Source: Ancylonema sp.
Taxonomy: Eukaryota
Length of the DNA stretch: 64,000 nt
Direction: 5' to 3'
NCBI GenBank assembly: GCA_050230475.1
Contig: JBFLGF010000200.1
Coordinates: 1 to 64,000, forward strand
Shown: positions 30,876 through 59,174 of the stretch, one piece after another
Position numbering within the stretch: position 1 is the first letter of the stretch
How the letters are laid out: every line of letters starts with the position of its first letter
Notes under the pieces: model-generated
Told to the model about the DNA's origin: nothing
The model's database searches: none
Seen by the model: the letters and a program-made list of their open reading frames with translations, nothing else
Position numbers and translations under genes: made by a program

Positions 30876-31331
30876 CGTCGTGCAAGAAACAGTTACAGAG
30901 TGCAGGCACCTCCAGCTTAATCGAGTTTCCCGTGCAGCAGTGCAGAGGCACCTTGAATACCCTCTCTCGATGGGGTCATTAATATGAGTGCTGACAACAC
31001 GCTAAGAGAGGACGAACAGTGGGTTGTCATATTCCGCACATCTCACTAAAATTAAATATATATTCAGCTCGTAAGTAGCTAGCCTCACACAAATATGAAT
31101 GGCAGGTGCAGATCACTGCCCGCAGATTGAGAAGCCAGATAATACATGAGTCCCTGGTATATGATACGGGCAGGGAACTCGCGAACTGCCCCTGCCGTGT
31201 CCGACACCAGCTGGATATGATATCGAAGCGCGCTTAGCGTAGACGCCTCGCTGATGAGTATCGGTCAGGAGGCAGAGGAAGGAAGGGGGTATAAAAAAAG
31301 AGGGGTTCAAATTCGTTTCAAACTCTTTTGT
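27143..31331 (+). repeat. Second copy of ~16581-20769 (5' part of DGS1 plus upstream region)
   Basis: ORF track identical at constant offset 10562; identity ends at 31331. Confidence 0.95.
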
Positions 31332-31966
31332 GAAGATAGTGGGATCGATCAGTGATTCAGACGCCTCTACGGCTTTGGCTATGAGTTGATACATGCATCA
31401 TCATGAATTCGTATGTCAAGACATACGAATTTAAGCTGATGTCGGGTGCATTTCTTGATGTAGGGCTTCAGTTTGGCATCCATGGCTTGTATGCTCTAGT
31501 GTTCTGAAGAGGTGGAGAAGAATCATCACAATGGGGATATGAGGTTTGTGGTTCGTCACATCGGTAACCACATTTAGGAAGCGTGCTTTTCGGCATGCGC
31601 ATGCATTCGGGCATCTCATCTCTCTCTTCGCGTGATCCATGTGATATCTCGTGCGTGATAAGTACACAATGATGAAACAATGCTAATGTTCAGTTGCATA
31701 TGCGAGCATCATATGCGGGCATGTGATGTTTGTCGTGTTCATTGATCACTACCATTAAAGCCTTATTCACTTGTACCCAATCTTCTACACTGTAATCTCG
31801 ATTTAAGCTGGAATGGATATGGCAAAAAAAAGATATGACTCCATAACCAAAGGATCCACATCCAATGAACAAATTGTTATAATATAATACACTAAATATG
31901 TGGTCAAAAGGTGTGGTTATAAACAGTGCTCTAATGCTACTGTGCGACAACTAGTGCTCCTCCTCC

Positions 31967-33373
31967 TTAATCCCCTCCACCTCCTCCATCGTGTGAGGTG
32001 GGCAGCTTGCGCTTCCTGGACACTTTTACCTGTGTTAACAGAGGGAGACAAAGAGGCCAGAATGATGAGCAAGGGCAGCCTTCTGCTGTGCACAATGGGT
32101 CATGTAATATATTACCTTCACCCCGATTGCCACATGGTGCAGGTCGTACGTAACATCCTTTTATAGAGTTCGCCAAGTGTTTGTCCATCTCCACCAACGT
32201 CTTCGTCTTCACCCCGTATCCTTTCTGGCATTTCAGCAAAGAGTGACCAAATGTCCGCAACTCTCTGTGCTGGCCCTCTTCCCACACTCCATAATCGAAA
32301 TGCTGGCTGAAGTAGTGATCTCACACATGGTCGATCCTGGCGAATACCGCATGATTGCAGTTCTTGCTATGGTTGAGCTCCTCTCCCTCTCTCGGTGGTT
32401 CCGGGACGGGACACCACCATCCTCCGTTTTGGCCGACCGATGCCGGCTTATCACGAAACGCTTCGTAAAGTTCTGCAATCCGACCATGAAAACACATGTG
32501 CATACTAAAGAGGTTACTTCACATGTACTCAGTACGCAACATCACATATCACATCACATGTACGCGGATAGAGATAAGGATAGGCAGCAATACACATGCG
32601 TATGTTGATAGCATGCAGCCGCGGTTTACCCTTGCGATCGTCTGGTCGTTGGCCTTCCACTTGAAAGGGATAATGGTCTCGTCTCACAACGTACGGTTTT
32701 CCGTCCTTGGTTAGCGACGGCGATCCTCTCGCCTTCCCCCCTCCTTCACGGGCAGCTACAAGGGAGCTGTTTAGGAGGGGGGCAAGTGTCGTTGCGGGAG
32801 CAGGACGGAGGTTCCGGGTCGGGAGATATCACCTGTCGGGATACGTTCCACCACTTCTTCCGCAGCAGCCCTGCACTCAGCCACCAATGTCGCGTTCACG
32901 TTTTTGATGTCATATATAGACGCCTCCAACTTCTGTCTTTTGGCGGCCTCCACCTTGATGCTCTCCTGCAATGTCCTAATGGTGGCGGATTGCGTCTGGT
33001 ACACCTCAAGTGCCGTCTTCATTTCGGCGGCGTTCGTCTTGATGACCTCCTGTAATGTCCTAATGGAGGCGGAGTTCGTCTTGATGACCTCCTGTAATGT
33101 CCTAATGGTGGTGGAGTGCGTCCGGTTCACCTCCTTTACCGCCATGATTTCGCCGGACTGCGTCGTCGCGTCTTTTTGCACGTGGTCCAGTAGAACACAG
33201 AGTCTGTTCAGATCCTCCTCGAACTTCTTTCTCTTGATCAAGGGATCCTGAGTAGGATATGAAGACAGTCCAGGCCTCCGTTTCGGGAAGACTCGGGTAA
33301 TAATAACTATCTTGTCGCGGCAATGGAGATCGGCGTCGTGGTGAATTGATGTGAGGTGCGTCCTGGTAGCCAA
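31967..33373 (-). pseudogene. Coiled-coil repeat plus C2H2-like zinc-finger gene, degenerate
   Basis: ORF 32771-33373 has repeats (IRTLQEVIKTN x2, IRTLQESIK). Downstream exon reads WWCPVP..NCNHAVFARIDHV*DHYFSQH with a stop at 32321-32323. Confidence 0.5.
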
Positions 33374-33480
33374 ATATTCTTCCTGATAGCGTGGGCGGGG
33401 TGGTTGAAGTCGGCTCCTTTCGATATCCGCGGGTCACCCTACGTATAGTACAGGCCGATACCATGACGGCCGATTTTTTT

Positions 33481-33735
33481 TTTACCTTTGCCTTTTCCTC
33501 CGCAGCGGCGGGCGGGAGTTAGAGTTTCGGCCGATAGATCAAAACCGAAAATCATTTTACCTTTGCCTTTTCCTCCGCAGCGGCGGGCAGGAGTCAGAGT
33601 TTCGGCCGATAGATCAAAACCGAAAATCATTTTACCTTTGCCTTTTCCTCCGCAGCGGCGGGCGGGAGTCAGAGTTTCGGCCGATAGATCAAAACCGAAA
33701 ATCATTTTTCATTTTTCCTTTTCCGCCGCAGCGGC
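33481..33735. repeat. Three tandem 75-bp units (plus partial) between divergent ORFs
   Basis: Unit TTTACCTTTGCCTTTTCCTCCGCAGCGGCGGGC...CCGAAAATCAT starts at 33481, 33556, 33631. Confidence 0.95.
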
Positions 33736-33887
33736 GTATTAAGAATGTCTCTTTTCGTGGCTGTTCTCTGGCTGTAACCATGCGGTGACACGTGGAAATC
33801 GGGAGGATGCGACTACATCCACATGTGACATCACTATCTGACGAGGTAGCACGGTCAATTCACGGAAACCCCCCGACAACCGTAGAA

Positions 33888-35487
33888 ATGGAGGACCCCG
33901 TGACGTTGCTCGCAGAAGGCCTCCAGCTTTATGCGGAATTGACAGACGAGGATATCGATTACATCGAATTTCAACTCGGACAAGGATGGAATCCTGACAT
34001 GGCAGGTCTGCCCCTCGTCCCGGGTCGAGACGCAGAACCCGCCGACGTCTCGATCGTCGAGGGACAGCAGTGGACAGATACGGAGACAAACGCGACGGAA
34101 GAGGCTGTCGCAGAAGGCAGTGGTCGGGGATCTGGGTCGACCGGAGGCGCCGTGGACGCTTGGATACTACAGCAGAGGGTGGAAGTGGACCGGTTCATGG
34201 AGTGGATCAAGAGAGAGGCGATTCGGTCGGGTGTCGCTCTCGCATCTTTCTCCGACTTCCGTTAGGTGAGACGGAGTGGGCGTAGGAGCTCAAAAGAGGA
34301 GCTCAGGCATCATGGATCCTTGTCCTGCCGTTCACAACCGTGATGTTGCTATCGCAATGACCTCTTCAGCACCTTCTCGGGGACACCGAGGCGGTGGACG
34401 CGCAATGCTCGTCTATCCTGGGGATGGCCGGGGTCGACAGTGTGCAGGAGGTGCGAATTGGGGTCTACCCCTTTTTCGACCACGCAACCTGGAAGTTTGT
34501 CCAGGTGGATTTCTAGACCGAGGCCGTGATCCTGTGGGGATGGGAGGACGTGAACCACGTGCGGAATGAAATTGTGAGTTGAGCCTTGGACACTTCGTAC
34601 ACTCAAGGCCCCTGACTCTTCTTTCCCCCCTCGCAGGTATCCTTTTTGGAAAACGCGTCTCACCTCGGTGACACCGCAGGTCGTGTCTCCAGTACCCCGA
34701 TCTTCAACTTTTCCCGTGCCCCCTTGTCTGGAGACACAGGGGACCAGGGATTTAGCTGGATGCTCACGATATGTTGAATCTGAGCCCACGGGCCGATGGA
34801 GTTCGCAGTAAGAGTCCTGCTCCACGTCACCTAACCCCCCTAGGAGAAAAACACACTCATCTGACACACTTATCCGATCTACAGCCAGAAGAATTGGGGA
34901 GCATTGCGGAGTCCGTCGGGACGCGGGTAACGGAGGACAGGGAGAGTCAATTCCTGGCCGCCATCGATTCTTCGTGCACTGACAAGGTGGATCTTCCACC
35001 CATGCCAGGTACCAACACCTATTCTGACACAATCCTTGATGGTACGGACAGAACGTAAACGACGCAATCCGTGCAATGCGATCTACAATGTTCGGTCAAG
35101 TGCAATACCAGGGAGCTGCCTACTATACTGTCAGCTCCTACCTGTACACAATGGTGAGTGGCTGGCGCTACAGCATCATTATTTTTTCCACAGGTGGCAG
35201 GGTTTGGTACCGCAGATGCGTTGGTGCTGTGGAGTTCGGTCCGGGAAGACATCAGAGCAGCAGGATGTAGAGTGGTATAACCCCTTACTGGTACGCACTG
35301 CATCTCTCAAAATCAGTGACTACTGGTTGTGCACACAGGTGTGGATCCCCATGAACGATGAAGGTCATTGGAGACTCCTCCGCATCAACCTGGATGCGGG
35401 AATTGTGATGACCTACGACCCTATGTGGCCTACAAACAGACTTGAAGAGGAGCCACCTAATTTCGCCTTCCTAAAGAACGTACTGGC
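33888..35487 (+). pseudogene. Ulp1/C48 (SUMO protease)-like gene, degenerate, interrupted by a copia element
   Basis: VWIPMNDEGHWRLLRINLDAGIVMTYDPM matches the C48 His/Asp region. An upstream degenerate segment GVYPFFDHATWKFVQVDF*TEAVILW looks similar. Several stops and frameshifts. Confidence 0.65.
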
Positions 35488-38444
35488 TATAGGAATAGTA
35501 GTCATTTGGCTAAGTTCCTAGTCCGGATGTTCTTGAACATGTAGTCCGGTTGAAACTCTGGATAGGAGTTATTAGATACGGGGATGATACGGGGATTAAT
35601 AAGCCCGACATAATTTGGTCGAGATATTTGGGTCGATCGGTCAATCCAGCCATTAGCTGGATTGAGTACGTATTTGTCATGCATATCGGACATGTGTCAG
35701 TTAAATGCTGGTCATGTGAGTTGCGGCCGCGAGTATCTTAGTCCGTCGAAGCACCTATTGGTTGGCTATCGCTGATTGGTGCTTACATATACGTGTTAAT
35801 TTGCATGTGCATTTAGATTCGCATTGTATCATAAAGTAGACGTGGGCGCGTAGCGAGTAGTGTGGCTCGCTATTGTGTTTGTGCGAAACATTGCTCAAGG
35901 TCTGACTTTCAGACCTTGGAGCGGTAATTGATCGAACTTGCAACTCATCTCACACCGAATCTGAAAATGCGTTGTTGTGAATGAGGAGTGTATGGGCACT
36001 TGTTCGAGATAGGATTCACGCATACATAAGAGTTCCATATCAAGATGGACTCTTACTCTTCAAATGGTAAATGGTATCAGAGCGATGATTTTCAAGGTCC
36101 AGAACTATAGGGTCTGGTGTTCTCAAGGAGAATAACTATAGGGTCTGGTCTACGGTCGTAGAACAGAGCCTTAGGGAGAAGAAGTTATGGGGGCACGTGA
36201 TGGGTACGGCAGTCAGGCCTCCTCCCCCGCGCGCCAGGGCACCGGCGGTTCGGACAATCGCCGCATCCCAAGGAGTACTTGCCGTGGCCGGTGCCGCGGA
36301 AGTTACGCATGCAATAGCGGAAAGGGAAACGAAACTCTTTGAAGACTTTGATGCATCCATGGCCAGGGCTAACAGTGTGCTTCTGTCGACGCTTGAGCCT
36401 AAGGACATCATGGCGACTGTGATGCTGCCCTCTCCGGCTGAGAAATGGGCTCAGTTGGCCAGGATTATGCCGCGGTTTCCATGGCTAAATGCTAGGTCAA
36501 GGTTCAATGATTTCAGGATGCATGATGGGGACTCCGTGGTGACTACTCAGCTTCGCTTCGACGAAATGGAAAATGAATGTGCCATACAAGGGGTTTCAAG
36601 CACGGAGGATAACAAAACGATGATCCTTTTTACTCAACCCTCCGAAGCGTGGAGAGATTTCATGGATGCATATGCTACAAGAACACCCTTACCGGCGGTT
36701 GCGGAGATTTTCCGAGCTATGAAAGCGCTAGAGGAGCGGAGGAACATGCGGAACGATCGTGAGTATGCCGAGGCAAATTATGTGGGACGATCTGGTGGAG
36801 GGGGCAGCAATGGCGGCTACAAGCCGAAGGTGACTGGCCGCTCGGAGATGAGTGGAGGGAGTGAATCAAGAATTTCTACTGTTGCGGGAAGACGGGGCAC
36901 TTTGCTCGAGAGTGCCCCATGCGGGAGAAGACATGCAACGTCTGCAGTCTGAAAGGACACCTTGCCAACATGTGCCGGTCAAAGAGTGGGGAGGAGGATG
37001 TCCAAGAGGATGCAGCCGATAAAGCGGAGAAGCCGACGGAGACTTCGGGGAGGCCAAAGTCGCAGACTTATGTGGAAAGGCCGAAGTTGCTGAATCCTAA
37101 GGCGACCAAGTTTCAGTTGGCAAAGCAAAATGTTGAGGGGATGGTGGTGGCCGAGTCGCCCTGCCAGATGACCTTTCCTTTTCGTCAAGTGAAGAGGCCG
37201 AGTGGCTCGCCGATTTAGGTGCATGCCGCCATGTTTGTACAAACTTACAAACTTGAGCCTCATGTGATGAGCTGAGTGAGCCTGTTAAACTTACTCACCT
37301 TGCCGGTGAGATCGATGTACATCTAGAGGGGACAGTGAAATTGGAATGTGCGGATGACCTCGGTTCAGAGGTGTTGTTCTTGTATGAAACCCTCTATGTA
37401 CCTCAGGCTACTACAAATCTGTTTAGTGTTCAAAATATGAGAAAGGCGAAATGCAGGATTGTGCAGCAAAAGAGGCTTGGAGTGCAGTGGATGAAGAACA
37501 AAAGGGGAAAGGTGAGAGGCAGTTTGGTTGAGGACTGTAATGGTAGAGCAACTGTGAATTGTAGGACCATGCTTCCCCCTCTTATAGACCTGATTAGGAT
37601 TCTGAAACTAGCATCACATGATGGTGGAAACATTGGAGTGGTTTCGGGAGTCTTGCCGGGATTTATGCCAACTCCGGGGTTTGATGGGGTGTAGTCCCAA
37701 CCGAGGGGGCTGATCATAACTTTGAAGTTATGATTGCTGAGGTAGGGAATTGTGGAAGAGTGTGGTGCGCTGTCCCAACCATTTTCAGAAGGAGAGGGAG
37801 AGCAACTCCCAGTCGAGGGGGCTGAAGATTCGCCAACCTTGGGGAAGACGTTCCTCCCGATCGATTGTGATGAGACATTGCCAGCCTGGAATGAAGTAGT
37901 GGCAACAAGGTCGGAGCCGGTGCTCTTTCCATCTAAAGTGGAGGTGGTTACGCAGTCCCCGGCCGCGGGGAGAGGAGCTGGATATTCACCCTCGGGGGGG
38001 GAACTCCCAACCATTGTGATGGCGTTGCCAGCCGCACAAGTGGGAGTGCACATCGATTGGGGGAGTAGTGAGACTTCCACCGATAGTGATGACATGCTGA
38101 GTGTTGAGAAGGTCGATGAGATCTCATTGGACACTTCTGATTCTATCAGGAAGATTACAAGTGGCATTGCTGACGTCACTAAAAGAGGCATTGTTCCATT
38201 GGGAGGGAAGGCAAATTTTGTGATGCTCGAGATCGGCTTCGGTCTGAAGCGACCTCCTACTGTTTGGGATGATGTGCATGGAATGAAGAGAGTTAGTCAC
38301 CTTAGTGGGGCTGGCTAATTGATCATGAATAGTGGCTAGGGATTAGCCAATGAGAGGGGGATTGTAGGATAGTAGTCATTTGGCTAAGTTCAGTCCGGAT
38401 GTTCTTGAACATGTAGTCCGGTTGAAACTCTGGATAGGAGTTAT
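35488..38444 (+). mobile_element. Ty1/copia element A, non-autonomous (gag plus protease only); 5' LTR 35488-36062, 3' LTR starts at 38363 and is interrupted
   Basis: PBS TGGTATCAGAGC at 36072-36083; gag ORF 36197-36952; zinc knuckles CGKTGHFAREC and CNVCSLKGHLANMC; protease EWLADLGACRHVC...LYVPQATTNLFSV; PPT GAGAGGGGGAT before 38363; TSD CTGGC. Confidence 0.9.
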
Positions 38445-40845
38445 TGTGGACGCCATTGTGACGTCCACTCAACTCAACTCTTTACACTTGAGTAATACCC
38501 AACTCAAACTCAGAACTCAACTCTTACTCAGATTGCGCTCAACACAAACGCAGACTCAGACTCATTCACATACACATTAAACTCATTCACATATGGCGCA
38601 GCTCATAGACAAAGCTTCTTTCATATACAAGCAAGTAAAAAAACAACACCGGAGAAGAATTGTACCTATACCCATTGTATGAAAATCTCAATCAACTAGC
38701 CAAAAGTAAGACCTTTGTCATCAAGTTGACATCTCATGACTACTGACCCTAGATTAACCGAACGAGTAAATCTAATTCGTCAACTATTGATTTATTGCGC
38801 GCCGAGCCAATAACGCGACTACTGCATTTCACTGACACACGTCACTTTTCTACCGATACAACTAATCATTCTAAACAAGAGCGAAAAACAACACGTTCAT
38901 TATTCTAAATATTCCCAAAGACAAAACGTCACTTCAAGTCATAGACGCGAATAACCAAAAACACGAAAAACAAACCAAAAACCAAAAGCGTCAAAGAACC
39001 GCGCACTATTACGGCAACAACTTTGGTCGAACTAATTAACACATCATAATATACAAATATGTTGCAGAAAATACTCCACATTCCCCCTCCCTGCAACATC
39101 CATCGACACATTTTACCCACTTTTCTATCATCCCCACCAATCCCTTGCAGACTTTTAGAACTCCTACTCCAACATTTTTGTAACATGTCTGCTGCATTCA
39201 ATCCCGGTCGACCTTCCCTAATTCAATAAGACTTTTCAACCCTGTCCCTGAGTGAATGATACTTGATTCTGATTGCTTAGACCTCTGATGAAAGACTGGA
39301 TTCATCGCCAATTTAAGTGGAGACTCATTATCACCTAGCAACAGAACTTTTTCTGTGCCAATTCTCATTTCCCCCTGGAGCTGTTGCAAATAGATGGCCT
39401 CATTCCCTGCCTCACTCAGTCCCACATACTCTGACTCACAACTGCTATGAGTAACAACTATCATCATCGATGACCTCCAGATCACTGCTGCACTAGCACT
39501 CATAAACACGTAACCATTTCTGCCCCTGGATGTCTCTCTGTCTCCAGCATGTCCAGCATCAGAATACCCCCACACCCCCACCTGCGCACCTCTCTTATAA
39601 AGCAACCCCTCTCCAGCTGTACCATTCACGTACCTCAGTACACGTTTTACCCCCTCCCAATGTGCTATTCCAGGGTTCTGACTAAACTTGCTAAGTTCAG
39701 ACACTGATGCTGACAAGTCTGGTCGAGTACAAGTTGCGAGATCCATCAAACTCCCAATTGCAGACCTGTAAGGCACATTCACCATTTCACTCCTCTCCTC
39801 ATCGGTGACTGGTTGCTGAGAGATGTCCAGATGAGTTCCCAGCTCCATTGGTGTCGACACTGTCTTGCTCCCCTCCATGCGCGCTGAAACGTTTGACGAC
39901 ATCTCCTGCATACTTCTCTTGCACCAGAAGCACATCGCCATTCGCCCGCCTTCGAATCTCTATACCCACCAAGAATCTAGCCTCCCCAAGATCTTTCATT
40001 TTGAATTCTGTATTCGCTGACGTGTTGTCTGCGTTCAGCACTACGGCTATCTCAACCGGCTCAAGTTCTGTTCCGTTCACTATCTCAAGACTGTCTTCTG
40101 CGTCCAAGACAGCGGTGAGATTTGTGCGCCATGGCCCATACGTAATTGAATCTTTCAGCACTGTTTTCTTTGTGTACTCTGATGATCCAGAGCCTGATGC
40201 TCTGATGGACGCCATTGTGACGTCCACTCAACTCAACTCTTTACACTTGAGTAATACCCAACTCAAACTCAGAACTCAACTCTGACTCAGATTGCGCTCC
40301 ACACAAACTCAGACTCAGACTCATTCACATACTCATTGAACTCATTCACATATGGCGCAGCTCATAGACAAAGCTTCTTTCATATAAAAGCAAGTAAAAA
40401 ACAACACCGGAGATGAATTGTACCTATACCCATTGTATGAGAAAAAAATCTCAATCAACTAGCCAAAAGTAAGACCTTGTGTCATCAAGTTGACAATATC
40501 TCCAAATGACTAAGACCCTAGATTAAAACGAGATCTAATTCGTCAATATTGATTGAGTTATTGCGCGCCGAGCCAACACTACTGCACATTTCACTGACAC
40601 ACGTCATAACTTTTCTACCGATACAACTAATATTCTAAACAAGAGCGAAAAACAACACGTGTCGTTATTCTAAATATACCCAAAGACAAAACGTCACTTC
40701 AAGTCATAGACGCGAATAACCAAAAACACGAAAAACAAACCAAAAACCAAAAGCGTCAAAGAACCGCGCACTATTACGGCGGCAACTTTGGTCGAACTAA
40801 TTAACACATCATCATATACAAATATGTTGCAGAAAATACTCCACA
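38445..40845 (-). mobile_element. Ty1/copia element B nested in the 3' LTR of A; LTRs 38445-39080 and ~40206-40845; internally deleted (gag N-terminus fused to RT/RNaseH)
   Basis: LTR termini TGTGGA...TCCACA; PPT GGGAGGGGGAA; RT FKMKDLGEARFLVGIEI and PYRSAIGSLMDLATCTRPDL; RNaseH GYSDAGHAGD..SSCESEY..GDNES; PBS remnant TCAGAGC. Confidence 0.92.
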
Positions 40846-41606
40846 GTCTACCCCCACTCCACCCACCCACCGAGACGCGCGTACAATTTTGTTCTGGGAA
40901 TGCGAGGACTCCGACGACCAGTGCACCATTGTCGTCCTCCTCCGAGGAGGTAAGCAAATGTCACCAGCCTGGCAGCGGTGTATTCCCTGGCAGCGGTGTA
41001 GTCCTCGCATGTTTCGAGAAATGTTGTCATTGTCGCGCGGGGCTGGGCTCCACAAATACCCAAATGGAAAAATATAGAACTATGTGTGTGGAAAACGAAT
41101 GGCTGCGCTGGAATGGTGGAATGCAGTGGACGTACAATGTAGGGTGTACGGAGGGGAGGTGTGGTGGGGGGGGGGGGGGGGGGATGGGGTAGGAATTTTG
41201 CAGGCCCGCCTTCCGTTTGCCCAGGTGGGATTAGTGGCTGCAGTTGGGATTTTTCGGCGGGCTTGTCTCCGATCCCACCCATGCACCCAAAAAACACCCC
41301 CACCACCTTACTCCCCACTATGTTGTCTACCAGAGGTGTGGCCAATATTTTGGCGACCTCCTTGCAGCGTCCTTGCTTGAATGTAGTCATGTATTTCTGT
41401 AACCCAGAACAAATCACTTTAGTTACTCCTCACCGGGGCTTACGTCACATAAGTTACGAGGTATACACCTCGCCCAAACTCAATTTCTGATTCCTGAGGA
41501 TGCAATCCAGGGTCCTCAGGATCCACGCACCCGTCTGTTTGATAGACGTGATTATATTGGGGTATAATCCATATATGTGGCACCACTCCATGGCTTCTGG
41601 GGCCAG
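40846..41606 (-). pseudogene. Inverted continuation of the Ulp1-like gene
   Basis: Starts with TSD CTGGC and continues the 35036-35487 frame: (KNV)LAPEAMEWCHIYGLYPNIITSIKQTGAWILRTLDCILRNQKLSLGE. Confidence 0.7.
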
Positions 41607-42107
41607 TGAAGAGTCCATCTTGATATGGAACTCTTATGCGTGAATCCTATCTCGAACAAGTGCCCATACACTCCTCATTCACAACGCATTCAGATCGATG
41701 TGAGATGAGTTGCTAGTTCGATCAATTACCGCTCCAAGGTCTGAAAGTCAGACCTTGAACAATGTTTCGCACAAACACACTAGCGAGCCACACTACTCGC
41801 TACGTGCCCACGTCTACTTTATGATACAATGCGAATCTAAATGCACATGCAAATTAACAACGTATATGTAAGCACCAATCAAGCACACAGCGATAGCCAA
41901 CCAATAGGTGCTTCGACGGACTAAGAGACTCGCGGCCGCAACTCACATGACCAATACGAATCCGGCATTTAACTGACACATGTCCGATATGCATGACAAA
42001 TACGTACTCAATCCAGCTAACGGCTGACGGCTGGATTGACCGATCGACCCAAATAACTCGACCAAATTATGTCGGGCTTATTAATCCCCGTATCCGTATC
42101 TAATAAC
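41607..42107 (-). repeat. Remainder of the copia A 3' LTR, inverted
   Basis: Reverse complement matches 35568-36062 and ends ...ACTCTTCA followed by TSD CTGGC. Confidence 0.9.
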
Positions 42108-42112
42108 TTAAC

Positions 42113-42744
42113 TGGAGTATTTTCTGCAACATATTTGTATATTAATGATGTGTTAATCAGTTCGGCCAAAGTTGCCGTAATAGTGCGCGGTTCTTTGACG
42201 CTTTTGGTTTTGGGTTTGTTTTTCGTGTTTTTGGTTATTCGTGTCTATGACTTGAAGTGACGTTTTGTCTTTGGGAATATTTAGAATAATGACACGTGTT
42301 GTTTTTCGCACTTGTTTAGAATGATTAGTTGTATCGGTATAAAAGTTATGAGTGTGTCAGTGAAATGTGTCAGTAGTCGCGTTATTGGCGGCGCGCAATA
42401 ACTCAATCAAGTTGACGAAAGTTTCTCGGTTAATCTAGGGTCGATTTGGAGATAATGTCAACTTGATGACAAGACAAGGTCTTACTTTTGGCTAGTTGAT
42501 TGAGATTTTCTCATACAATGGGTATAGGTACAATTCTTCTCCGGTGTTGTTTTCACTTGCTTTTATATGAAAGAAGCTTTGTCTATGAGCTGCGCCATAT
42601 GTGAATGAGTTTAATGAGTATGTGAATGAGTCTGAGTCTGAGTTTGAGTTGAGCGCAATCTGAGTAAGAGTTGAGTTTGAGTTTGGTTGGGTATTACTCA
42701 AGTGTAAAGAGTTGAGTTGAGTGGACGTCACAATGGCGTCCACA
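42113..42744 (+). repeat. Third LTR-B copy, in opposite orientation to the other two
   Basis: Reverse complement of 38445-39078. Confidence 0.92.
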
Positions 42745-44359
42745 GTCAGCATTAGTCGACTCGTGACCCTCGGACTTGTCCCTATGTGTTGACCTATCCG
42801 ACTTCTTTTTTGGGTGGCTGCAGTGCTCACCAGAAGAGTGTCAAGCGAATGATGACTTGCACTCTCGAGCGATCGAGGAAAATAAGTTTGCGGTTGGTTG
42901 GATACATGTGAGAATTTTGGTCTTATGGTGGCAATGGTTCCTCTTTTTCTTTTGACTTCTTTGGATTCTTTGCTCTTTTCTGGAAAAGTACTTCACCTCT
43001 TGTGTATGCATCCTACATCCAACCCACCTCCCATCCTCCCATGTTGTTGTTGTGTCATCCCCTTCAGACACACCCCGACTTTGAGCATTTCATGTCCAAC
43101 ATCGACATACACACGTCGGTGAAAATACAGGTGTGTAACGGGTCCGCATTAGGCAGTAAAGTCGCCTTGTAGTGATTGGTAAATTTGATATGATATTGGG
43201 AAGCGTGGATTTACAGAGAGACACGGCAGAGTCTGTGGCCATCGTCTTGGCGCCCAAAAAGGGAGATACCCCGAAAGGGTGAGCAACAATGCCCCTCCCT
43301 ACCTCGTCCCCGGTATTCTTGATTATCCAATGTAGCAGAATGGAAATAGAAGCCATGCTGACAATAAACCTTGCACTGGCGGTGGGAGGAGGGGAGGGAG
43401 AGGCTAGGAGATCAAGTGTGGCGAGTAGACTCCGGACACAGGGATAGAGGTTCAAAATGGGGACGCCATAGGGGAAGGTGGTAGTGGGGAGCTGTCCCCC
43501 AAGAAGAAGAGGAGTAGAAAATAATGGTGTGGACACATGTGTGTGTGGTGTCCATGTGGCAATTTAGAGTGCTACCATCTGCGTAAGCATGATTTATAGT
43601 GAACAGTGCACTACTTACATAGAGAGGAGGATGCACTAACCATCATAATTGTGACGATGATGGTGAACATTTGAATGACTCTAATCGAAGATTGATCATA
43701 GTGTCTGGGTCAGATGTATCAAGAATCTTATTGAAGTTTGACTTTCTTGTTCTCGGTCCAAAGCCAAAATGAAGATGTGTATTGATGCTTACTATACCGA
43801 ATTGTTGCTTACTCTCCACGGTATGCAAACAATTATATATGGGATGAGATTATTTTGGTCACAGAATTATGAAACCCACTTGCGCAGTGTCTGAATATAA
43901 AAAACATCACGCATCCTTCGCGAGATTTGAGATATCGCGCTATAAACGAGAAGACAAATGACATACCGCGATCTTCAAGAGTAATTCAGATATCGCGCGT
44001 AGTGGTGGTCAACACTAGATGAGGAAGTATTATTTTCATAACATGAAGAAGCTTATTATGTAATACTTAATGCGAAAGAGAAAGACTGAAAAAATATAGA
44101 TAGAACGCAATTTACATTTCACACCTCGAAAATTACTATGAAAGTGCAAAAACACCCATGGACATGAAGTTATGATCAAGGTCTCGACATTGCTAAATCA
44201 AGTCTACTGTCTGGTGGACGTCGATACTGCCCAAGGGTTGGGACTGCTTTTGGGATCGGGCTACTTAACCATACAGACTTCCTAACACACGGACCTTCCA
44301 CACCATACCATGAACCGCATAAAAAATATTTCCTCTACCTCCTCCTCCTCCGCCGAGTT

Positions 44360-47134
44360 CTACACGTCCTCTACCAACACCCCCTCTACCCCCAAGTTCT
44401 CTTCCTCCCACTCTTCCAGCCCGACATCCTCCACATCCTCGCCTTCACCACCATCTCCGATCCCCCTGGGACTCCCACGGTGACCCATTTTGGGCAGGCA
44501 CTCGAGCATCAACGACTCGAGCTGCTGCATCGGACCGGCTCTATCACTTTCAGGGTAGGATGACTCGTCGAATAAGATGGGCCATTCATCCAAAACCGAT
44601 ACAGCGTAAGGAAGAGACGTGGCCTCGGTGGCATCATCCAGTGCGATCTGTTCCGCATAATCCAGGGGTCGCCCGACTTGTAAGGCCCACACCCGTTTGC
44701 AATCCCCGACTGCCATATGGTCCACCCTGTCCATCGAGGTGTACCACTTGGCCATCTCCAACTTCCTCACAAAGCGGCGTCTTGACAAGTCGATGCGTTT
44801 GTAAACACTGCAAATAAGGGTGGGATAAGAGGACACACTGTACGTAAGATCACCCATACAAAGTCAAGGAGAAGGTGACTCGAGTCGTATTGGCTAGAGT
44901 GTATGTTCCCACCTTGTCCACACTCTCCTGTACGACTCCAGATCCGCCTCCTCTCTCGATCCCACACCGACAACGCAGTCACCACTTGCGTCTGGTCCAG
45001 TCAAGTGGATGGGCATTGAGTTCATATCGGACCACACACACAAAAGACACATGCAAAACCAATTGTTGGGCTGTGAGGCGAAGTTATGTGTAGAGGATTA
45101 AGCAAGATATGCAATAACCATACCAGATGACTCTCGTTCTCGATGGTACTCTTCGAGTATGTTCACAGTCTTGCGTAAGATGTCGGGGTTGAATCTCATG
45201 ACTAGAAAGCCCTGTTCACGTGCTTCTCTATTGGCATCGCTATTTCTGGCCAATCGCGACAGGGATTTCACACGGACTCGAGTGTGGGTCTTGTTCACCA
45301 CCACCAATTGAGCAAAAAATGCATCGGTTGCAGCCTTCGAATGACCACCCCCCCTTCCCTCTTTCTCCGGGTCTTCCTCACGCAGACAAGGTGGCACCAA
45401 ATCTGCCTCTCCCGCGTTCTCAATCAGGCGTTCCCTCCACCCTGCTCTCCTGCACTCGTCATCCACACTTGCCCTCACTCTACGTGCGGCCACCACTGCT
45501 GGGTCTGCTTCCACCACGACTGCAATATCCGGGGGAAGCTTGGGGAGGTGAGGAATGGCCCTTTCTTGCGCCTTCTCCGCCATCTCCTCGTTCGACCCAG
45601 CCCGACGCGCACTAAAGGGAACATATTGAGGAAGGCGGGCTATCCGGGCCACAAGATTCAGGGTTGCCACCAAAAACACCCTCCTCCTCTCCAAATAAAA
45701 CCGCGTTGTTGTCGAAAAGGAGGTTCCCGAGGGGACCAATGTACGACTCCATCGTGACACGTGTTAGATTAGTGTGTCCGAGAGCACGCGCTAAGGACTG
45801 ATAGTGGTAGGCTTTCGGTACCCCGCCACTCTAGGACGTGAGGTTGACAAGGGCTTGGCCGGCCGCGCCTGACCTAAAGCTGCGCATGCCAAATTTGATG
45901 ACCGCATCCTCCGACATCCCGAGTTGATGAAGTAGGTCTCGCAACTGACGAGACTTCACATCCGGGGGGAACCTACAATAGGGTAGATGGGTAGTGTGTG
46001 AGATGTAGGTGTGCAGGTAGGAGGAGGAGCAAGAAGGGGGGGGGGGGAAGAGGGCTAATTAGGGCAATGAAGAAGAGACTCCACAGAAAAATGTATGCAC
46101 CTCCTCCCACCCAACTCACCGTCTTCTGGGGTGAGAGTACTCCTCCCTCCACAGCTGGAAAAACAAAATAATCAAGGCACTCCGGCTTCACCACAAACCT
46201 TTGCTTTCGACACGCTTCTGGCAATTCCAGGTCTAGTACCCCCATCTTCACCGCCAAGGCAACGAGAGTGCGAACCAAGCACAATTCCCGGACCTCGAAC
46301 TCCTTCAATTTTACAGATCTCCCCTTTCCCCCCAACGCAGCCGCGAAACCCACCGACTTACTATCTGGAACAACCACCACCACCTCCACATGTCGATTTT
46401 CCTCCTCATCAACATGGGCCTGGAAAGTAACATGTCGCCACTTCAGCGCTTGATACGAGTTGGGGCGGCATAGGCAGGTAAAGCCGGTCAACATCACCGC
46501 ACGAAGTACCAGGTCCGATACACTCATGGGGTCCAACAATTGAACCATTGTACGAACAGCCATTGCGGGAAGAGGGGTTTGTCGATGACACCTGTCAGCC
46601 CCAAGGGCCCTGAAACAATCAAAGACATTTGAAGGGAGGTTGATCCATTGAGCTCCAGGTTTACAAGAGCGCTTTGTGAGGGTGTTAAGGATCTCACGGT
46701 GCAATACTTTTCATCACCAGTGATGACTCCCGTCTGAGAACCGACACGTCACCACTGCCAACAAACTTTCCCTCCTCCACCATCGACCATTCCTTCTCCT
46801 CAACGAATGATAACAGGTTGTAAGACAAAACGCGCATATATGTGAAGCTATGACCACGAGGCCCCATAGCGAATCCAAGTGGATCAGTGTGAGGGTCCTT
46901 CCCCACAGAGGGTATGGCCAACCACCATAAGAAGTACTTTAACGTCTTTGGTGTGACGGGGAAGTCTTGGTCACTCCACAGGCCATCATCCATCCCATAC
47001 GGACCTAAAAAGGACACACGATCTTCCTGTCTGGCAACCCTCATCATGTGATTAAAGACTATCCACTTCCGAGTTGCACGGCCCTGCAGATCGGCCTTCT
47101 TCAACACGGCATTATCCATCACTTTTTTTTTCTC
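44360..47134 (-). pseudogene. Tyrosine recombinase YR-2 (Crypton/DUF3435-like) with long C-terminal extension; spliced, with stops and frameshifts
   Basis: LRAVMLTGFTCLCRPNSYQALKWRHV (R at ~46466), VPDSKS (K), CLVRTLVALA, intron ~46119-45973, then LRDLLHQLGMSEDAVIKFGMRSFRSGAA (R), RALGHTN (H), TMESY (Y at 45741-45743). Confidence 0.85.
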
Positions 47135-47187
47135 CTAACAAAAAGAAATAGGTCGACGCGCGGAATTACACAACCATTATACACAAT

Positions 47188-50100
47188 TTATGCCACAGGA
47201 CATTTTTGTGCACACACAAAATTGCAGGTCAACCAACATGCACCCATCTTGCCATGTTCTAGCATACATGTAACATGAAATGCGGTTGCACCCCCACCCT
47301 GGCCCACCTCATCATCCATAGAGGTTAACAAGGACGTGAGTTCCTCTTGCAACAATTCCTTGAGCGAATTGACAAAGTCGCTCGACTTGGTTCTTCTCTT
47401 GACGACCTCCAATTCTGAAGCACACTTCTTGAAATACGCTTGCATCCGCACCCAATCACCGTGTGCCTCTAAATCAACAAGGGGGGACTCCGATGACCTG
47501 TACCGCTGCAACTGTGCGATGGCGAACGACAGTTCCCTATGCACAACAGCGTGTGATCGATGTTCGCCCATTTGAACATCGGACATCGTGAGAGTAGGTA
47601 TCGATGGAGGCACATCTGGGAATAAAAACAAGGACAACATTGAGAACATGAGCAAATAGAGGGAGGAAAGAGGAGGAAGGGATAAATACGGTTAGCGCTA
47701 ACAATTAAACAGTTGTGTTCGATGGGAAACAGGAGTGGAAAGGAAGTCACCTATGTGCTTTGCCACAGTTGGAACAACCTCGACACCTTGGCGCCATGAC
47801 ATTGCCCACACCCCCTTCCCCTCTCTCCCGTACACCATCTGATAACCAGCACTCGAAGGAGCAACTCTTCCGCCTCCCACCCTCAGTATCCTCGACAATC
47901 AGATCCAGGTCCACACCCTCCACACACATATCATCGACTTGAGCATCTGCTGGGGGGTGGGTGAAGATTGGGTGATGGTCCAGTAGAACTGAAGACTCCG
48001 CACCACGGGAGCAGTACTGATATCGTCACCGCACCCCGCCAGCAACTTTATTTGTGGAACATGGGTGTTCTGACCCACGAACCATCTCGCATATTTCCGG
48101 GCCACGGTCTGTCTCGCATTGCACAGGCTGCAAGGCACAGGTTCTCAACCTATTGGACATCAGAAACAATCACACTTCCTTCACATGAGAGGGAAGAGAA
48201 CATACTTATGCACAGCCTTAGAGCGGGCTGCCTTCGTGTGAGGGACTCCCCCTTCATTGTTTTTGTAATTATTTGCTGGCCCTTCTAGCTCCTGGATAGT
48301 CTTCACCCACTTGTGGTATGCGGGGAGAACTTTAGAACCCTCTATATCAGCACGTCCCTCCTGTTCTTGCTCCCATGGTAGAATAATAGTGAAGAAGTGC
48401 TCAGGTGTTTCATCTGCATATAGCAACGCAATCAAATGAACAGTTAAAATTGGCAAAAAAGACAGGTTGCATTCAACCCGAACCCACCCAAGTATTACCT
48501 GAGAGTTTACTTATAACTTCATCCAACGCTTTTCTCAAGAAAGAATCCTTTTGATTCTGGGTGTCCCGTGCACACAACTCCTCCTCCGCAGTAGCCGACT
48601 TTTACGGATAACAGCGTACCGTCAGGTCTAAAGACTCCGCAGCACGGATTCTCTGCTCTGATCTGTCGACAAGAACCTTTCTGTTCTGTTCCTTAAAAAC
48701 CTGCCCAATCTGGACACGAAGCACACTGGGCACATTTCCACGGCCCCGTTTGAGGCCCGGTTTGGTAGGAGGCCCCGGAAGGAACAATCCTCCGGACTGG
48801 GCAGGAGTCAATACACCGGGTCCTCCCAGCACACCTTCAGACAGGATCTTCTCACCACCAAGCGTGACCAACCCCTCTACCCCAGTAACCTGGTTGGACA
48901 CATCCCCCCCTTGCCCCACACCATCCGGGGTGACTTCCATGCATATCTTGTGGGGTCGACACCCACTAACTCCAACCTTCTCTTCAATGCGCAGGAGAGA
49001 TAATAAATATTCAGCTACAAGCGAAAGAAAGGGGAGGAAAATGAACAAGCTTGGTTACCATTAAGTTCCCATTAAAATGTTTTTCTTCAAAATAAAAAAC
49101 CGGCTGATCGGAGAAGAGAACTTCGTCACAATCACGAGGGCATAAAAGCATCTCCAAGCAGCCGACCTTAACACTGCAGTCTTTTTCGAATACATCTTGA
49201 CGACGACCGATTTGAAGCACTTGCTCAACTAAGCAAATCTGTGAAGAGAAGATGGGAATTAAAAAGGTGGGAAATAAATGCCAACTTCTACCACATTGAA
49301 TTCAGCTTAAAGAACTCAAGCAGAAAAAACATAGCGGCATTGCTTGATACACAACCACATCTCTTGTCGCATACAAAATCAGACCTGCGGGTGTGACCGA
49401 CGCCCAATTTGACAGAGGTGGGTGGAACCCATGTTGGAGGAGTTTTTGAAAGGACGGATGGCCACATTAATAGCAGTCCCCCCATCCAACATAGTGACGT
49501 CTTTCCAAGTAATGTTGATGATTTCTTTTGAACGAGGACCACACACGAATGAAAGTATGAAGAGAATGGAATCTCGGAGATCAACATCGATACAAAGGTC
49601 GAGTGAATTTAATAATGGAATTAAAACATCCAGCAAGAGTGACTTCTGTGTCTTGAAGGGGCGAAGCACCCCAGATGCTCTATTCCAATGCCTCTTGGAT
49701 ATCTCCATCACCTCACGCAAGCGTCCGATACGGGCTTCGGGTGGGCCTTCGCCCCCAACCACATCGGGACGAACAATGGCCCATGCAAGGAGGGCCCATA
49801 AACACTGTGAATAATGTGGAATGGGGGTGGAGAGGGAGGGGGTCGGGGGGGGGGGGTTATTTCATACAATTGTCTCCACTAATGTGACAGAAGGGACACA
49901 GTTCTCACCTTGATAGACGTATTGTATGACAAGCCAAGTTGCTCCCGTAGGTGTCCCAAGTATATGAAGATGACGTCAGGATCGATGGCAGTCAACGATT
50001 TCCCGGACATCTCCAAAAATTGACAATAGGAGAAAAATGGCGCTAGTCCATCACGCAAAAAAATAACTGTGCAGGGGATAAACAATGTCATTAATTTATA

Positions 50101-50606
50101 TCCGGTACCATACACATATTTGGGGCAAACTACTCTGCTCACCCTTATTCCGGGTTTTAATGACGTCAGAAGCGCCAATGGTAGCATCTAAAAATCGACG
50201 CAGATCCGGCAGATTCTCTGTCGCCCCCCCCTGTCTACCAACATCAGTTAACAACTTCACTGCATCGCCCTTCCAGTCCTTGGCCCTGCTAAAACGACGG
50301 CCACTTCGTTTCGAGCACGTCGGGTGTGGCTAGCAACAATAAGGAATAGAAAAAAGAAGGAAATTAAAAAAAAGTAACAAAATACGCAGGCTCGCATAAA
50401 ATCCTTTCAATAACCGAACAAGGATCAAAACAATTTCAGGGGCGAAAACCAACCAAAACAAGCACAGCCTCCGAATGGGGGGGCAAGTTCTCATCTCCAT
50501 CGACTGGCAAGCCAGAAGAGGCGGTACACAAGTTATGACCGACATTCGTCGGCAGCTCCCCCAACGGGTTGCGCAACTGAAGGGGGCGGGGGGGGCCAGT
50601 AGTCAT
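47188..50606 (-). pseudogene. Tyrosine recombinase YR-1 with core-binding domain and C-terminal extension; spliced, degenerate (start tentative)
   Basis: Integrase N-domain-like FFSYCQFLEMSGKSLTAIDPDVIFIYLGHLREQLGLSYNT; box I LRDSILFILSFVCGPRSKEIINITWKDV (R at ~49533); RPFKN; ICLVEQVL; RRLELVGVDPTRYAWKSPR. Catalytic H/W and Y not recognisable after a frameshift. Confidence 0.78.
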
Positions 50607-50952
50607 GATCTCACATCTGCACACAATCCATCCAGATCCAGGGTTGGGATACAACGAGTAAAACAAGTACAGTGCGAGTTGAACACGTACCCAACGTCTA
50701 CAACATCGGGAATACCGGTTGGTATTGTGGACTCGGTGGTTGCAGGCATAGAATTCGGCAACAAAACAATACGACCTTCAAAAAAAAGGAGAAAACGTGT
50801 CGCAACAATCGGATGAGAAACAATATGTCCTACAGGATTCCCAGATTCGTGTGCTATCAACCACAATAATGTAACTAGAAAAAGGAACGGTCAATAACAA
50901 CACATCATTTTTTGGTGCTTGAGTTACAGCAGCCAAGAGGGTATACGGTTCA

Positions 50953-52017
50953 TAATCGCCTAAATCCTCTGGTACACAGGCTGGTACTTGTGGTCCATCT
51001 GCAAATATATTTATCGTATAAATACAATGAGAAAAATCTAGCAAGGCAAAACGAGATTCATGGATCTTTTTGGTAAGTCGGACCATTCCTGAACACGGTA
51101 GGAGGGGTAACATACCATGATTCTCCGGTGACACAGGTGAAGGAGGGACTGTGAGTGCCTTCACCGATTGGATAGGTCGATTCGGTAATGAGTGAGGCCA
51201 ATTCAGGGAGTGAAGACCGATAATAAGGCGGAGGAAATTAATACCATCGTAAGTGGAACAAAACAAATCGTATTTCTTCCGTTTTATGGAATCACGTTAC
51301 AAATCCGAGGCCGGATAATGTAGGTATTGATTACTAGTATAATGGACCAGCACAATACAAACAGTTTATAACTCGTTGGAAGACAGACAACGAGGCATTC
51401 GAGCTCCAAATAATTTAGTAGTTTGCTGTAATACATACCTGCCTCTCATTTTATTGAATCTCGTTAGATGTCCGAGGCCGGATTATATACGTACTGGTTA
51501 CTTGCATACTAAACCAGTGTCATACCATGGTGTGTCCCGGACAGAGAATGTCGCAAACCGGCGATAGGCCACCACAAGTCCGACAAGCTACGGAATGCAG
51601 ATTTCTAAAAATATGGGAATCAAAGCTGTAACGGGAACGCAGATCGAAGGAGGTATACACCAGGAAAGGGTGGTCATGCTAGCCTAAGAGGACACTAACA
51701 GGGAGAATCCTGGCATTAATTCTTCCGAGGAATCTGCATGTTTTGACAAATTTGCGAGCAATGAATCTTGGCGACGACTGACACTATTTGGTGCGCTGGA
51801 CAAGGAATACACGGCACGTAGGACCATACAACGAATACATTATAACACGGTAAATGTGATATGTACACGATACAACGTCTGGACACATGGACGTCGACGT
51901 CAACAGACGTACCCGTACATTGGCAGGTCGTCAAATAAAATAATAATACATCATTCTGAACCGGTTAATTTAAAACTTGGAAATAAACCGACAATATTCC
52001 GACAATATTCCCATATA
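50953..52017. repeat. ~1.05 kb non-coding repeat forming the right end of the insertion
   Basis: Collinear similarity to 62205-63251; similarity stops at CCCATAT, about 8 nt before the junction. Confidence 0.85.
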
Positions 52018-52694
52018 TGGAGTGGATGTTGCACCTCTCTGCAGCTGCAACGTGTTACACGAAGTTGGCAACTGTGGCAGGATTGGCCCGTTCCCGCTGG
52101 ATACCCATTGAACAGAAAGAAAATTGACTGCCCGCAACTTTTGAGCCAAAAGTCACCCTTGAGATGGGTCCCACCGGAAGTATTGAACAGCCATTATGGT
52201 AGCTGGACATGCAGCTGTTTAATCAGGCTGGAAGAGCTGGATACTGAGGATGGAAATGGGGATAAGGGCTGTGGCTTTGGCGAACCCGACAAGATTTGCA
52301 TATCAAATCCGTGGCTTCGGATAACCGTGCAAAACATGATGGACAAAACCTGGGGCGCAGAATAAATCGGACTCCTAAACTCTAAACCTCCGACAGAAAA
52401 CACCTCCAAGTGCTCCAAATCTGTCCGAAATCCTGCGCGTTCCGCAATCGTGTCCGCAGCTGCAGAAGGGTAGCTAGTGCAGATTTCAGAGAGCAGTCAG
52501 GCAACTAACTTTAGAGTCAACCTTGCCACTTGTCTCATGGTCAGTTTACACACGGTCGCCCGAGGATCAAGTCGCGTGCCTGTTAGCGCCAGCAACGGAT
52601 AGCAAACGAAAGACAGAGCACTCTGTTGTCCTTGAGGCAGCTGAAGAGACAGCGATTGCGAGCATCTTGTCGCTGTCGTGACTTCGGAGAGACT

Positions 52695-57363: not shown

Positions 57364-59174
<1,811 letters not shown>

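What the first reader, a model, noticed from the sequence alone, without database searches (positions are those of the whole stretch)
31332..52025. Candidate large cargo-carrying tyrosine-recombinase transposon (Starship/Crypton-like) in a green-lineage genome, with filled and empty sites in one window
Seen: the paralogous block reads ...CTCTTTTGT|T|ATTTTGCACC (20761-20780). The second copy has CTCTTTTGT ending at 31331 and ATGTTGCACC resuming at 52026, so ~20.7 kb sits at a near nucleotide-precise point with no TSD or TIR. Removing nested copia DNA leaves ~14 kb holding YR genes as the first genes from the right end, plus Ulp1-like and coiled-coil/ZnF genes. Known: YR-mobilised DNA elements (Cryptons, fungal Starships with a 5' captain YR and cargo) lack classic TSDs. 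Inference: this is such an element in a lineage where I do not know of them being described.
Basis: partly seen in the sequence, partly recalled or inferred. Interest (0 to 1): 0.9.

Follow-up and report, generated by a model that had tools for sequence, protein, structure and literature searches.

The report
Twin-recombinase transposon in a glacier alga
A roughly 14 kb piece of repeated DNA with two broken, unrelated recombinase-type genes sits in one genotype of what is likely a glacier alga and is likely missing from a second genotype, so it is probably a decayed jumping element of a kind known from fungi, water moulds and Chlamydomonas, here in an unusual two-enzyme form.

Summary
The junction letters are as reported, and the 20.7 kb insert is real. 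Contigs bridge its left junction. Contig depth rises 3- to 12-fold inside it in four of five runs. Each end is seen once with another flank. Without nested copia DNA, about 14.2 kb remains. It holds two intron-containing tyrosine recombinase (YR) genes unlike each other: one matches phage integrase profiles, the other folds like Cre. It also holds a Ulp1-like protease gene and unknown ORFs. Both YRs are broken in this copy.

(1) The empty site is probably not a paralog but a second, about 9%-divergent genotype scaffolded alongside; the ratio is about 4:1 in one run and 1:2.6 in another. (2) No DUF3435 match and no host-derived cargo were found, so it is not a Starship. (3) Cryptons with Ulp1 (oomycetes) and active Cryptons in Chlamydomonas are published.

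Best reading: a Crypton-like YR DNA transposon of a likely streptophyte glacier alga, new in its YR family, its two-YR layout and its host group. Untested: a contig across the right junction, and whether left and right halves always travel together.

The parts
31332..52025 (-). Whole insert: about 14.2 kb YR element plus about 6.5 kb nested copia DNA; strand given is that of the YR genes
   Evidence: Flank register against 20761-20780; depth steps at both ends
31332..31344 (+). Left terminus. Bridged by contigs; two contigs of run X3 begin matching exactly here with another flank
   Evidence: table 8 (X1 record 5, X2 record 7) and table 7 (X3, place 31332)
31396..31441 (.). Subterminal hairpin, 22-nt arms, 86% complementary, 64 nt inside the left end; role unknown
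32774..33433 (-). Open frame of 220 codons with coiled-coil-like repeats; only weak coiled-coil profile hits
33480..33736 (.). 75-nt tandem repeat, 3.4 copies; the highest summed depth in the left part
34931..35487 (+). Ulp1/C48 peptidase-like frame (His in GHW and Asp in YD seen; no Cys motif found), cut by a copia LTR
   Evidence: PF02902 E 8e-5
35488..42744 (.). Nested copia DNA: one LTR pair with gag/pol remnants and a 5-nt target duplication (CTGGC), three copies of a second LTR (97-98% alike), and an inferred internal inversion
40849..41606 (-). Inverted piece of the element; the Ulp1-like frame runs on into it across the LTR's target duplication
44363..45025 (-). Unknown frame with two internal stops and an acidic tail; no convincing family hit
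45101..45583 (-). Unknown open frame of 161 codons; may be a tail of YR2
45612..47586 (-). YR2 gene model, 4 exons, GT-AG introns. Motifs: R (LCRPNS), K (PDSKS), RSFR in place of HxxR, LGH, ESY. Frame break at the start of the last exon and an in-frame TAG at 45833-45831
   Evidence: fold like Cre; 13 homologues at E<=1e-10
47774..48601 (-). Cys-rich and unknown exon-like frames between the two YRs; they may belong to either gene or join them into one
   Evidence: no Pfam hit
48811..50749 (-). YR1 gene model, up to 7 exons (first two uncertain), GT-AG introns. Motifs: R (CGPRSKE), K (RPFKNS), KSPR in place of HxxR, W; Cys where the Tyr is expected. In-frame TAG at 48879-48877
   Evidence: PHROG integrase E 1.2e-4; homologue P0023 PF00589 E 5.1e-5 and phrog_1 E 8.7e-8
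50952..52025 (.). Right terminal region of about 1.07 kb; a second copy ends within about 4-9 nt of this boundary
   Evidence: summed depth falls from 6053 to 278 in the next bin in X1
62205..63257 (+). Second copy of the right end, 86.7% identical, with different flanks on both sides (truncated or non-autonomous), on its own contig
27144..31331 (.). Left flank of the filled site (host DNA; its copy at 16582-20769 holds NCA2-family exons)
52026..55519 (.). Right flank of the filled site (host DNA with an F-box-type LRR gene), major genotype in X1
20761..20780 (.). Empty site as assembled. The right half is the minor genotype; the left half is likely major-genotype sequence joined on by the assembler
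20771..24292 (.). Right flank of the empty site; matches the low-depth divergent contigs of X1
   Evidence: 4 of 4 checked variant letters; 21/4 and 34/1 mismatches/gaps against 21/4 and 33/1 in the contigs

Best explanation
The insert is a repeated stretch of about 14 kb with sharp ends, two broken tyrosine-recombinase-type genes and a Ulp1-like gene, and it is likely a decayed Crypton-like DNA transposon of a likely streptophyte glacier alga that would move by recombinase-driven excision as a circle and re-insertion at a few bases of matching sequence. Shown: the ends, the repeated state, the YR fold and profile matches, the later copia insertions, and the broken frames. Inferred from Crypton and Starship studies: the recombinase binds both ends, recombines them across a 2-5 nt core (GA or GTG(A/G)A here), and integrates the circle at a similar short sequence, leaving no true target duplication. 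Inferred: YR2 keeps the full R-K-(R)xxR-H-Y set and is the likelier catalytic enzyme in intact copies. YR1 is either a second catalytic partner or an accessory end-binding protein; the two-YR bacterial element Tn554 is a recalled analogy. The Ulp1-like protein would act on host SUMO-dependent silencing (inferred, untested). This copy is dead and would need an intact relative to move. The empty site likely comes from a second genotype, about 9% divergent, co-occurring in the sample and scaffolded next to the first.
For: Left junction bridged with 0 and 2 differences by X1 record 5 and X2 record 7 (one sample, possibly the source). Median summed depth inside versus outside: left half 9.1x (X1), 10.4x (X2), 3.4x (X3); right half 7.3x (X1), 5.7x (X3), 12.3x (X6). 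Two X3 contigs start at 31332 with another flank. The second right-end copy loses likeness at 52016-52021. The YR2 core model (pLDDT 80) matches Cre: Foldseek E 2.9e-4; VIA Z 9.4, rmsd 6.0, 127 aligned, and the first 28 rows are recombinases, IB topoisomerases or relatives (four of those labels recalled). YR1 matches integrase profiles. 13 YR2 homologues at 36-74% identity; several of the closer ones begin or end near the same exon borders. No reverse transcriptase, DDE, helicase or capsid hit outside the copia nest among 144 ORFs. Genotype depths: exact type 161 versus divergent type 38 in X1, 6.8 versus 17.5 in X3. Host JJJ1 best hits are a lycophyte and liverworts at 45-50%; 5 of the 7 listed holders are glacier or ice metagenomes.
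Against: No listed contig bridges the right junction; table 8 showed 32 pieces, 23,357 were cut. In X7 the depth ratio is reversed (0.3x). This fits a different dominant genotype without the family, but that was not checked. The tool warns that summed contig depth is no copy number. No contig links the left (Ulp1) and right (YR) halves. The end repeats are only 2-5 nt, and the joined ends fold at P 0.02, 0.05 and 0.20 for three window sizes, which is not robust. The 142 letters by which X1 record 6 leaves the window at 31331 were not printed, so that they are the empty-site flank is inferred. YR2 has no Pfam, PHROG or NCBIfam hit, and both YRs lack the His of HxxR. The host assignment rests on one gene and on run labels.
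Confidence: 0.68

Rival explanations
1. The insert is two different repeats side by side: a Ulp1/coiled-coil element on the left and a smaller YR element on the right. They meet somewhere between 40849 and 44300.
For: No contig joins the halves. The second LTR family shows no clean target duplication at the 40849/42745 join. The two ends share no significant sequence. Ulp1 genes ride on many transposon types (recalled).
Against: Both halves have similar depth ratios in X1 (9.1x and 7.3x). The outer ends rejoin the empty site without an indel. YR plus C48 peptidase in one element is published (PMC3212892).
Confidence: 0.14
2. The element is a non-autonomous derivative of a DIRS/Ngaro-type YR retrotransposon that has lost its reverse transcriptase.
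For: YR2's closest solved fold is Cre. Homologues carry CPVR and YSFRSGG-like motifs that resemble DIRS recombinases (resemblance recalled, not tested).
Against: No RT or RNase H hit outside the copia nest. No split direct or terminal inverted repeats in the self-comparison. Two YR genes with many introns.
Confidence: 0.08
3. The segment is old resident DNA at this locus, and the second genotype lost it by a precise deletion.
For: The copy is old: stops, a frame break, nested LTRs 97-98% alike. No outgroup could be examined.
Against: Both ends recur with other flanks and the segment is repeated. A deletion that removes exactly a repeat's two ends would itself be excision.
Confidence: 0.04
4. 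The filled site is an assembly chimera: the repeat was glued between unrelated flanks.
For: The assembly is a mosaic here: Ns at block edges, 100% versus 86% flanks, and 26 of 27 mismatches of another duplicated block packed into its first 320 nt. The right junction was not seen bridged.
Against: Two independently assembled contigs span the left junction. A divergent contig leaves at exactly 31331. The flanks rejoin in register.
Confidence: 0.04
5. It is the remnant of an endogenous virus or Polinton-like element that used a YR as integrase.
For: The size is in the 14-40 kb range given for such elements (PMC12220804, start of abstract only). Several ORFs are unknown.
Against: No capsid, polymerase, primase or packaging ATPase hit in Pfam or PHROGs (18 proteins). 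The genes have spliceosomal-type introns.
Confidence: 0.02

Closest known systems
Crypton elements with a C48 peptidase (CryptonF-2_PS, some CryptonS; PMC3212892, passages read)
   Same: YR-encoding DNA element without TIRs, with at most a few bases of direct repeat at the ends and a second gene for a Ulp1-type peptidase
   Different: Those are from oomycetes and are drawn with one YR, with 5-6 nt terminal repeats (TATGG in most CryptonS). Here: two unrelated YRs, no GCR1_C or DUF3504 hit, about 14 kb, extra unknown ORFs, streptophyte host. TATGG occurs once at 52016-52020, just inside the right end, but not at the left end.
CryptonF-1_cRei of Chlamydomonas reinhardtii (PMC9977147, passages read)
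   Same: Green-alga YR DNA transposon; its demonstrated insertion at a 5-nt look-alike target and clean excision are the model used here
   Different: Chlorophyte host, fixed CACCG/CAYCG motif, GCR1_C listed in the figure legend. No such motif is established here, and sequence relation was not testable.
Starships (PMC10104507, PMC11162782, passages read)
   Same: YR gene first from one end and reading inward; extra genes behind it; short direct repeats; size just under the smallest listed (15,020 bp)
   Different: No DUF3435 match, no host-derived beneficial cargo seen, not a fungus, and a second YR gene
Bacterial two- or three-YR elements such as Tn554 and RIT (recalled, no call)
   Same: More than one tyrosine recombinase gene in tandem, no TIR or true target duplication
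   Different: Prokaryotic and intron-free; no sequence relation was shown here

Membership tests
Crypton (broad sense, PMC13465315) | Encodes a tyrosine recombinase | tested here: met
   Fold match to Cre; integrase profiles for YR1 and its homologue
Crypton (broad sense, PMC13465315) | DNA element: no reverse transcriptase of its own | tested here: met
   The only RT hit among 144 ORFs is in the nested copia; this copy is decayed, so a lost RT is not excluded
Crypton (broad sense, PMC13465315) | Interspersed repeat with defined ends | tested here: met
   Depth steps in X1, X2, X3, X6 but not X7; one other flank at each end
Crypton (broad sense, PMC13465315) | No terminal inverted repeats | tested here: met
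   Best inverted match 10 of 13 nt; P 0.12, 0.59, 0.97 for 30, 60, 100 nt
Crypton (broad sense, PMC13465315) | 4-6 nt direct repeats at the ends | tested here: inconclusive
   GA (2 nt) or GTGAA/GTGGA (4 of 5), depending on register; too few sites
Crypton (broad sense, PMC13465315) | Excision and circular intermediate | not testable with these tools
   Both ends do not fit in one 20 kb read-laying run, and only contigs were served
CryptonF / CryptonA subgroups | GCR1_C domain (F) or DUF3504 (A) | tested here: not met
   No such Pfam hit in exon frames or homologues; only exon pieces, not spliced proteins, could be scanned
CryptonS and other Repbase Crypton groups | YR falls in the group's clade | not testable with these tools
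   No Repbase sequences at hand
Starship | Captain YR with DUF3435 (PF11917) | tested here: not met
   No PF11917 hit at E<=0.05-0.1 for the YR exons or for 15 database proteins of up to 438 aa
Starship | YR is the first gene at the 5' end | tested here: met
   YR1 model starts about 1.3 kb from the right end, reading inward
Starship | Carries variable cargo genes | tested here: inconclusive
   Extra genes are Ulp1-like, coiled-coil or unknown; no host gene recognised; variation between copies not seen
DIRS / Ngaro YR retrotransposons | RT-RNase H gene plus split direct or inverted terminal repeats | tested here: not met
Polinton-like virus / Maverick | Capsid, packaging ATPase or polymerase genes; long TIRs | tested here: inconclusive
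   No profile hits and no TIR, but the unknown ORFs were not folded
Helitron / Replitron | HUH Rep (and helicase) gene | tested here: not met
   No Pfam hit; motif scan gave no convincing HUH or Walker A motif; only the left-end hairpin is reminiscent

The most novel reading that the evidence does not exclude
This is the first seen member of an undescribed superfamily of eukaryotic DNA transposons, spread in streptophyte algae, that uses two unrelated tyrosine recombinases (possibly one tandem protein) and carries further genes. It would be an independent origin of large YR elements next to land plants, separate from Cryptons and Starships.
Probability: 0.3. Interest if true: 0.82.

Novelty: new variant of a known kind. 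Interest (0 to 1): 0.57.

Why it matters
YR-driven DNA transposons are known from fungi, oomycetes, animals and Chlamydomonas. Nine paper searches listed none from streptophyte algae and none with two YRs in a eukaryote; the library lacks most subscription journals and Repbase reports. A family in the algal group nearest land plants would show that such elements reached that lineage. It would also give a candidate source pool for YR-derived plant genes: ALOG domains derive from a YR element, and complete copies of it were unknown in streptophytes (PMC3537659). And it offers a eukaryotic recombinase family that no profile library used here recognises (YR2). The case also warns that filled/empty pairs in assemblies from mixed samples can be two genotypes.

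Tried and rejected
No whole genome was held, so no genome-wide search of the ends was possible. Rfam: 0 matches in the window, so no 5S or tRNA target. A 21-nt conserved right-end motif gave 0 matches in JGI metagenome contigs. The YR2 alignment found no relative in viral contigs (8 pattern matches, none confirmed), metagenome contigs (80, none) or prokaryote genomes (57, none). No YR2 relative of 565-2000 aa among 7996 candidates, which is weak evidence. Sequence searches of solved structures gave nothing meaningful. The first fold model (P0004, pLDDT 49) gave only weak Cre and topoisomerase matches. The viral fold library gave no match at E<=0.001. The ESM Atlas gave no answer. No RNA holder was listed, which says nothing on expression. 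Four look-ups of earlier findings returned nothing. YR1 and YR2 show no significant likeness, so a recent tandem duplication of one YR is rejected. Tandem paralogs as the source of the empty site were rejected because the ratio of the two types differs between runs. No supplementary files of any paper were read; Repbase-type tables there could hold a relative.
Full report
1. The observation. Self-comparison shows that the pair of blocks is lopsided. 16582-20769 and 27144-31331 are identical over 4188 nt, while 20771-24292 and 52026-55519 are 85.6% identical by BLAST (317 mismatches in 3400 aligned columns). The window has three single Ns, at 24293, 27142 and 61358; the first two lie at the edges of duplicated blocks, which marks them as contig joins (inference). 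The piece between the first two Ns repeats 12066-14902, with 26 of 27 mismatches in its first 320 nt. No whole genome was held.

2. Host. Flanking genes hit Vps36/EAP30, DnaJ-zuotin, NCA2, F-box-type LRR and Ras families (133 ORFs). The DnaJ protein's best named hits are a lycophyte and liverworts at 45-50% identity; the chlorophyte Sanguina ranks far lower (114 hits). Seven of 12 listed runs hold the stretch: two of organism A (one sample, possibly the source) and five glacier or ice metagenomes from three studies. A streptophyte glacier alga is therefore likely. That such algae are Zygnematophyceae is recalled; a reference title seen in PMC13519894 agrees.

3. The empty site is likely a second genotype. 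On the right flank, run X1 has exact contigs at depth 121-189 and divergent ones at 38-49. The two divergent X1 pieces listed differ from the filled flank by 21 mismatches/4 gaps and 33/1. The window's empty-site flank differs by 21/4 and 34/1 over the same stretches, and all 4 variant letters I checked equal it. The five X3 and X7 pieces compared were similar but not identical in count. On the left flank, X1 also has divergent contigs at depth 36-45 with about 8-12% differences, yet the window shows that flank twice without a difference. X1 record 6 (depth 36) aligns to 31073-31331 with 31 differences and leaves the window sequence at 31331; its remaining 142 letters were not printed. Median depths of exact versus divergent pieces are 161 to 38 in X1 and 6.8 to 17.5 in X3 (from the listed pieces only). 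Paralogs in one genome would keep a fixed ratio. So the assembled empty site is likely a mosaic of two co-occurring genotypes, strains or sister species, and the insert is a presence/absence difference between them.

4. The insert is real and repeated. X1 record 5 (31073-31435, 0 differences) and X2 record 7 (30200-31435, 2 differences) bridge the left junction. No listed piece bridges the right junction, but only 32 pieces were shown and 23,357 were cut. Median summed depth inside versus outside is 9.1, 10.4 and 3.4 for the left half (X1, X2, X3; 23 versus 6 bins). For the right half it is 7.3, 5.7, 12.3 and 0.3 (X1, X3, X6, X7; 13 versus 14 bins). The bins holding a junction and the two copia bins were left out. 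The tool warns that this is no copy number; I use it only as a sign of repetition. X7 goes against the pattern; there the flank appears dominated by divergent sequence. Two X3 contigs begin matching at exactly 31332 with another flank. A second copy of the right end lies at 62205-63246 (86.7%); likeness ends at 52016-52021 of the first copy, and its left side has no match in the element.

5. Ends. There is no significant inverted repeat. Shifting the boundary by one base puts GA at both ends and aligns filled and empty sites without an indel. Shifting by two gives GTGAA/GTGGA. Folding of the joined ends gave P 0.02, 0.05 and 0.20 against shuffles for three window sizes, which I do not count as evidence. 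A 22-nt-arm hairpin lies 64 nt inside the left end.

6. Genes. Of 144 frames of at least 62 codons in the insert, clear Pfam hits were copia gag, zinc knuckle, Pol_BBD and RT, and Peptidase_C48. Two hits in the 75-nt tandem repeat are likely artefacts. The copia DNA (35488-42744) cuts the Ulp1-like frame with a CTGGC duplication, and the frame continues in an inverted piece at 41606. The protease shows His and Asp motifs; no Cys motif was found. YR1 (model 50749-48811) has GT-AG introns, R, K and W motifs, KSPR for HxxR, a Cys at the expected Tyr and one in-frame stop. Its main exon hits two PHROG integrase families at E about 1e-4; its one homologue (70% identical) hits PF00589 at 5e-5 and phrog_1 at 9e-8. 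YR2 (47586-45612) has R, K, RSFR, LGH and ESY motifs, a frame break and one stop in the last exon. The assignment of these motifs to catalytic positions rests on recalled YR consensus. No Pfam, PHROG or NCBIfam family matches it. A model from 22 sequences (pLDDT 80) matches Cre by Foldseek (4 matches at E<=0.001, all Cre) and by VIA-align (Z 9.4; type IB topoisomerase 9.0 and QRICH1 8.3 are near). The last exon aligns with the most distant homologue across the SFRSG motif (E 3e-6). YR1 and YR2 are not detectably alike.

7. Mechanism. By analogy with Cryptons and Starships, the recombinase would join the two ends, release a circle and integrate it at a short matching core. PMC9977147 (passages) reports insertion at a 5-nt look-alike and clean excision for a Chlamydomonas Crypton. 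PMC10104507 (passages) reports footprint-free excision for a Starship. A 2026 preprint, 10.64898/2026.09.21.753150, seen as a search listing only, reports circles for Starships. None of this is shown for this element. I put the whole reading at 0.68. The main rival is two adjacent repeats (0.14).

8. Comparison with what is known. PMC3212892 (passages) describes Cryptons without TIRs, with 4-6 nt direct repeats, and oomycete CryptonF and CryptonS members with a C48 peptidase; so the Ulp1 gene is a known Crypton partner, not novel cargo. PMC13465315 (passages) uses Crypton for any eukaryotic YR DNA transposon and calls the group non-monophyletic; in that sense this element qualifies. PMC11162782 (passages) defines Starship captains by DUF3435 and finds none outside Dikarya; that test fails here on exon pieces. 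PMC3537659, PMC11630846 and PMC13519894 were read as passages; the last, a Spirogyra genome paper, has no occurrence of Crypton, DIRS or recombinase in its main text. PMC12220804 was seen as a listing only.

9. Verdict. A real, decayed, repeated YR element. It works like a Crypton, is not a Starship, and is not the first YR DNA transposon in green algae. What looks new is the YR2 family, the pairing of two unrelated YRs, the size and the streptophyte host. Novelty: new variant of a known kind. Interest 0.57.

Noticed in passing
window 24294-27141: A contig between two Ns repeats 12066-14902; 26 of 27 mismatches fall in its first 320 nt, another sign of a two-genotype mosaic assembly
   Followed up: partly
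window 57105-61357: Two tandem Ras/Rab-family gene copies, 85.5% alike over about 2.1 kb; true tandem pair or genotype mosaic not resolved
   Followed up: no
window 38445-42744: Three copies of one LTR, one inverted; an inversion between them appears to have flipped part of another LTR and about 0.76 kb of the element
   Followed up: partly
window 85-141, 4740-4876, 7655-7831, 15189-15311, 55637-55800: Many tandem arrays with an 8-nt period and different units, an unusual microsatellite bias
   Followed up: no
window 33480-33736: A 75-nt tandem repeat between divergently oriented frames has about ten times the depth of the rest of the left half; it may be a separate small repeat or a binding array
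   Followed up: no
window 47774-48144: Cys clusters (SCSFEC, CRGCSNC, PCSLC) upstream of YR2 resemble zinc ribbons seen ahead of some YRs (resemblance recalled; no Pfam hit)
   Followed up: partly
proteins P0001 and P0015-P0022: A nine-member cluster 71-75% identical to the YR2 core with the same exon borders, from short ENA/Logan contigs: probably a sister family of the element
   Followed up: partly
window 7014-7304: A 12-nt repeat encoding a Gly/Tyr/Pro/His-rich peptide
   Followed up: no
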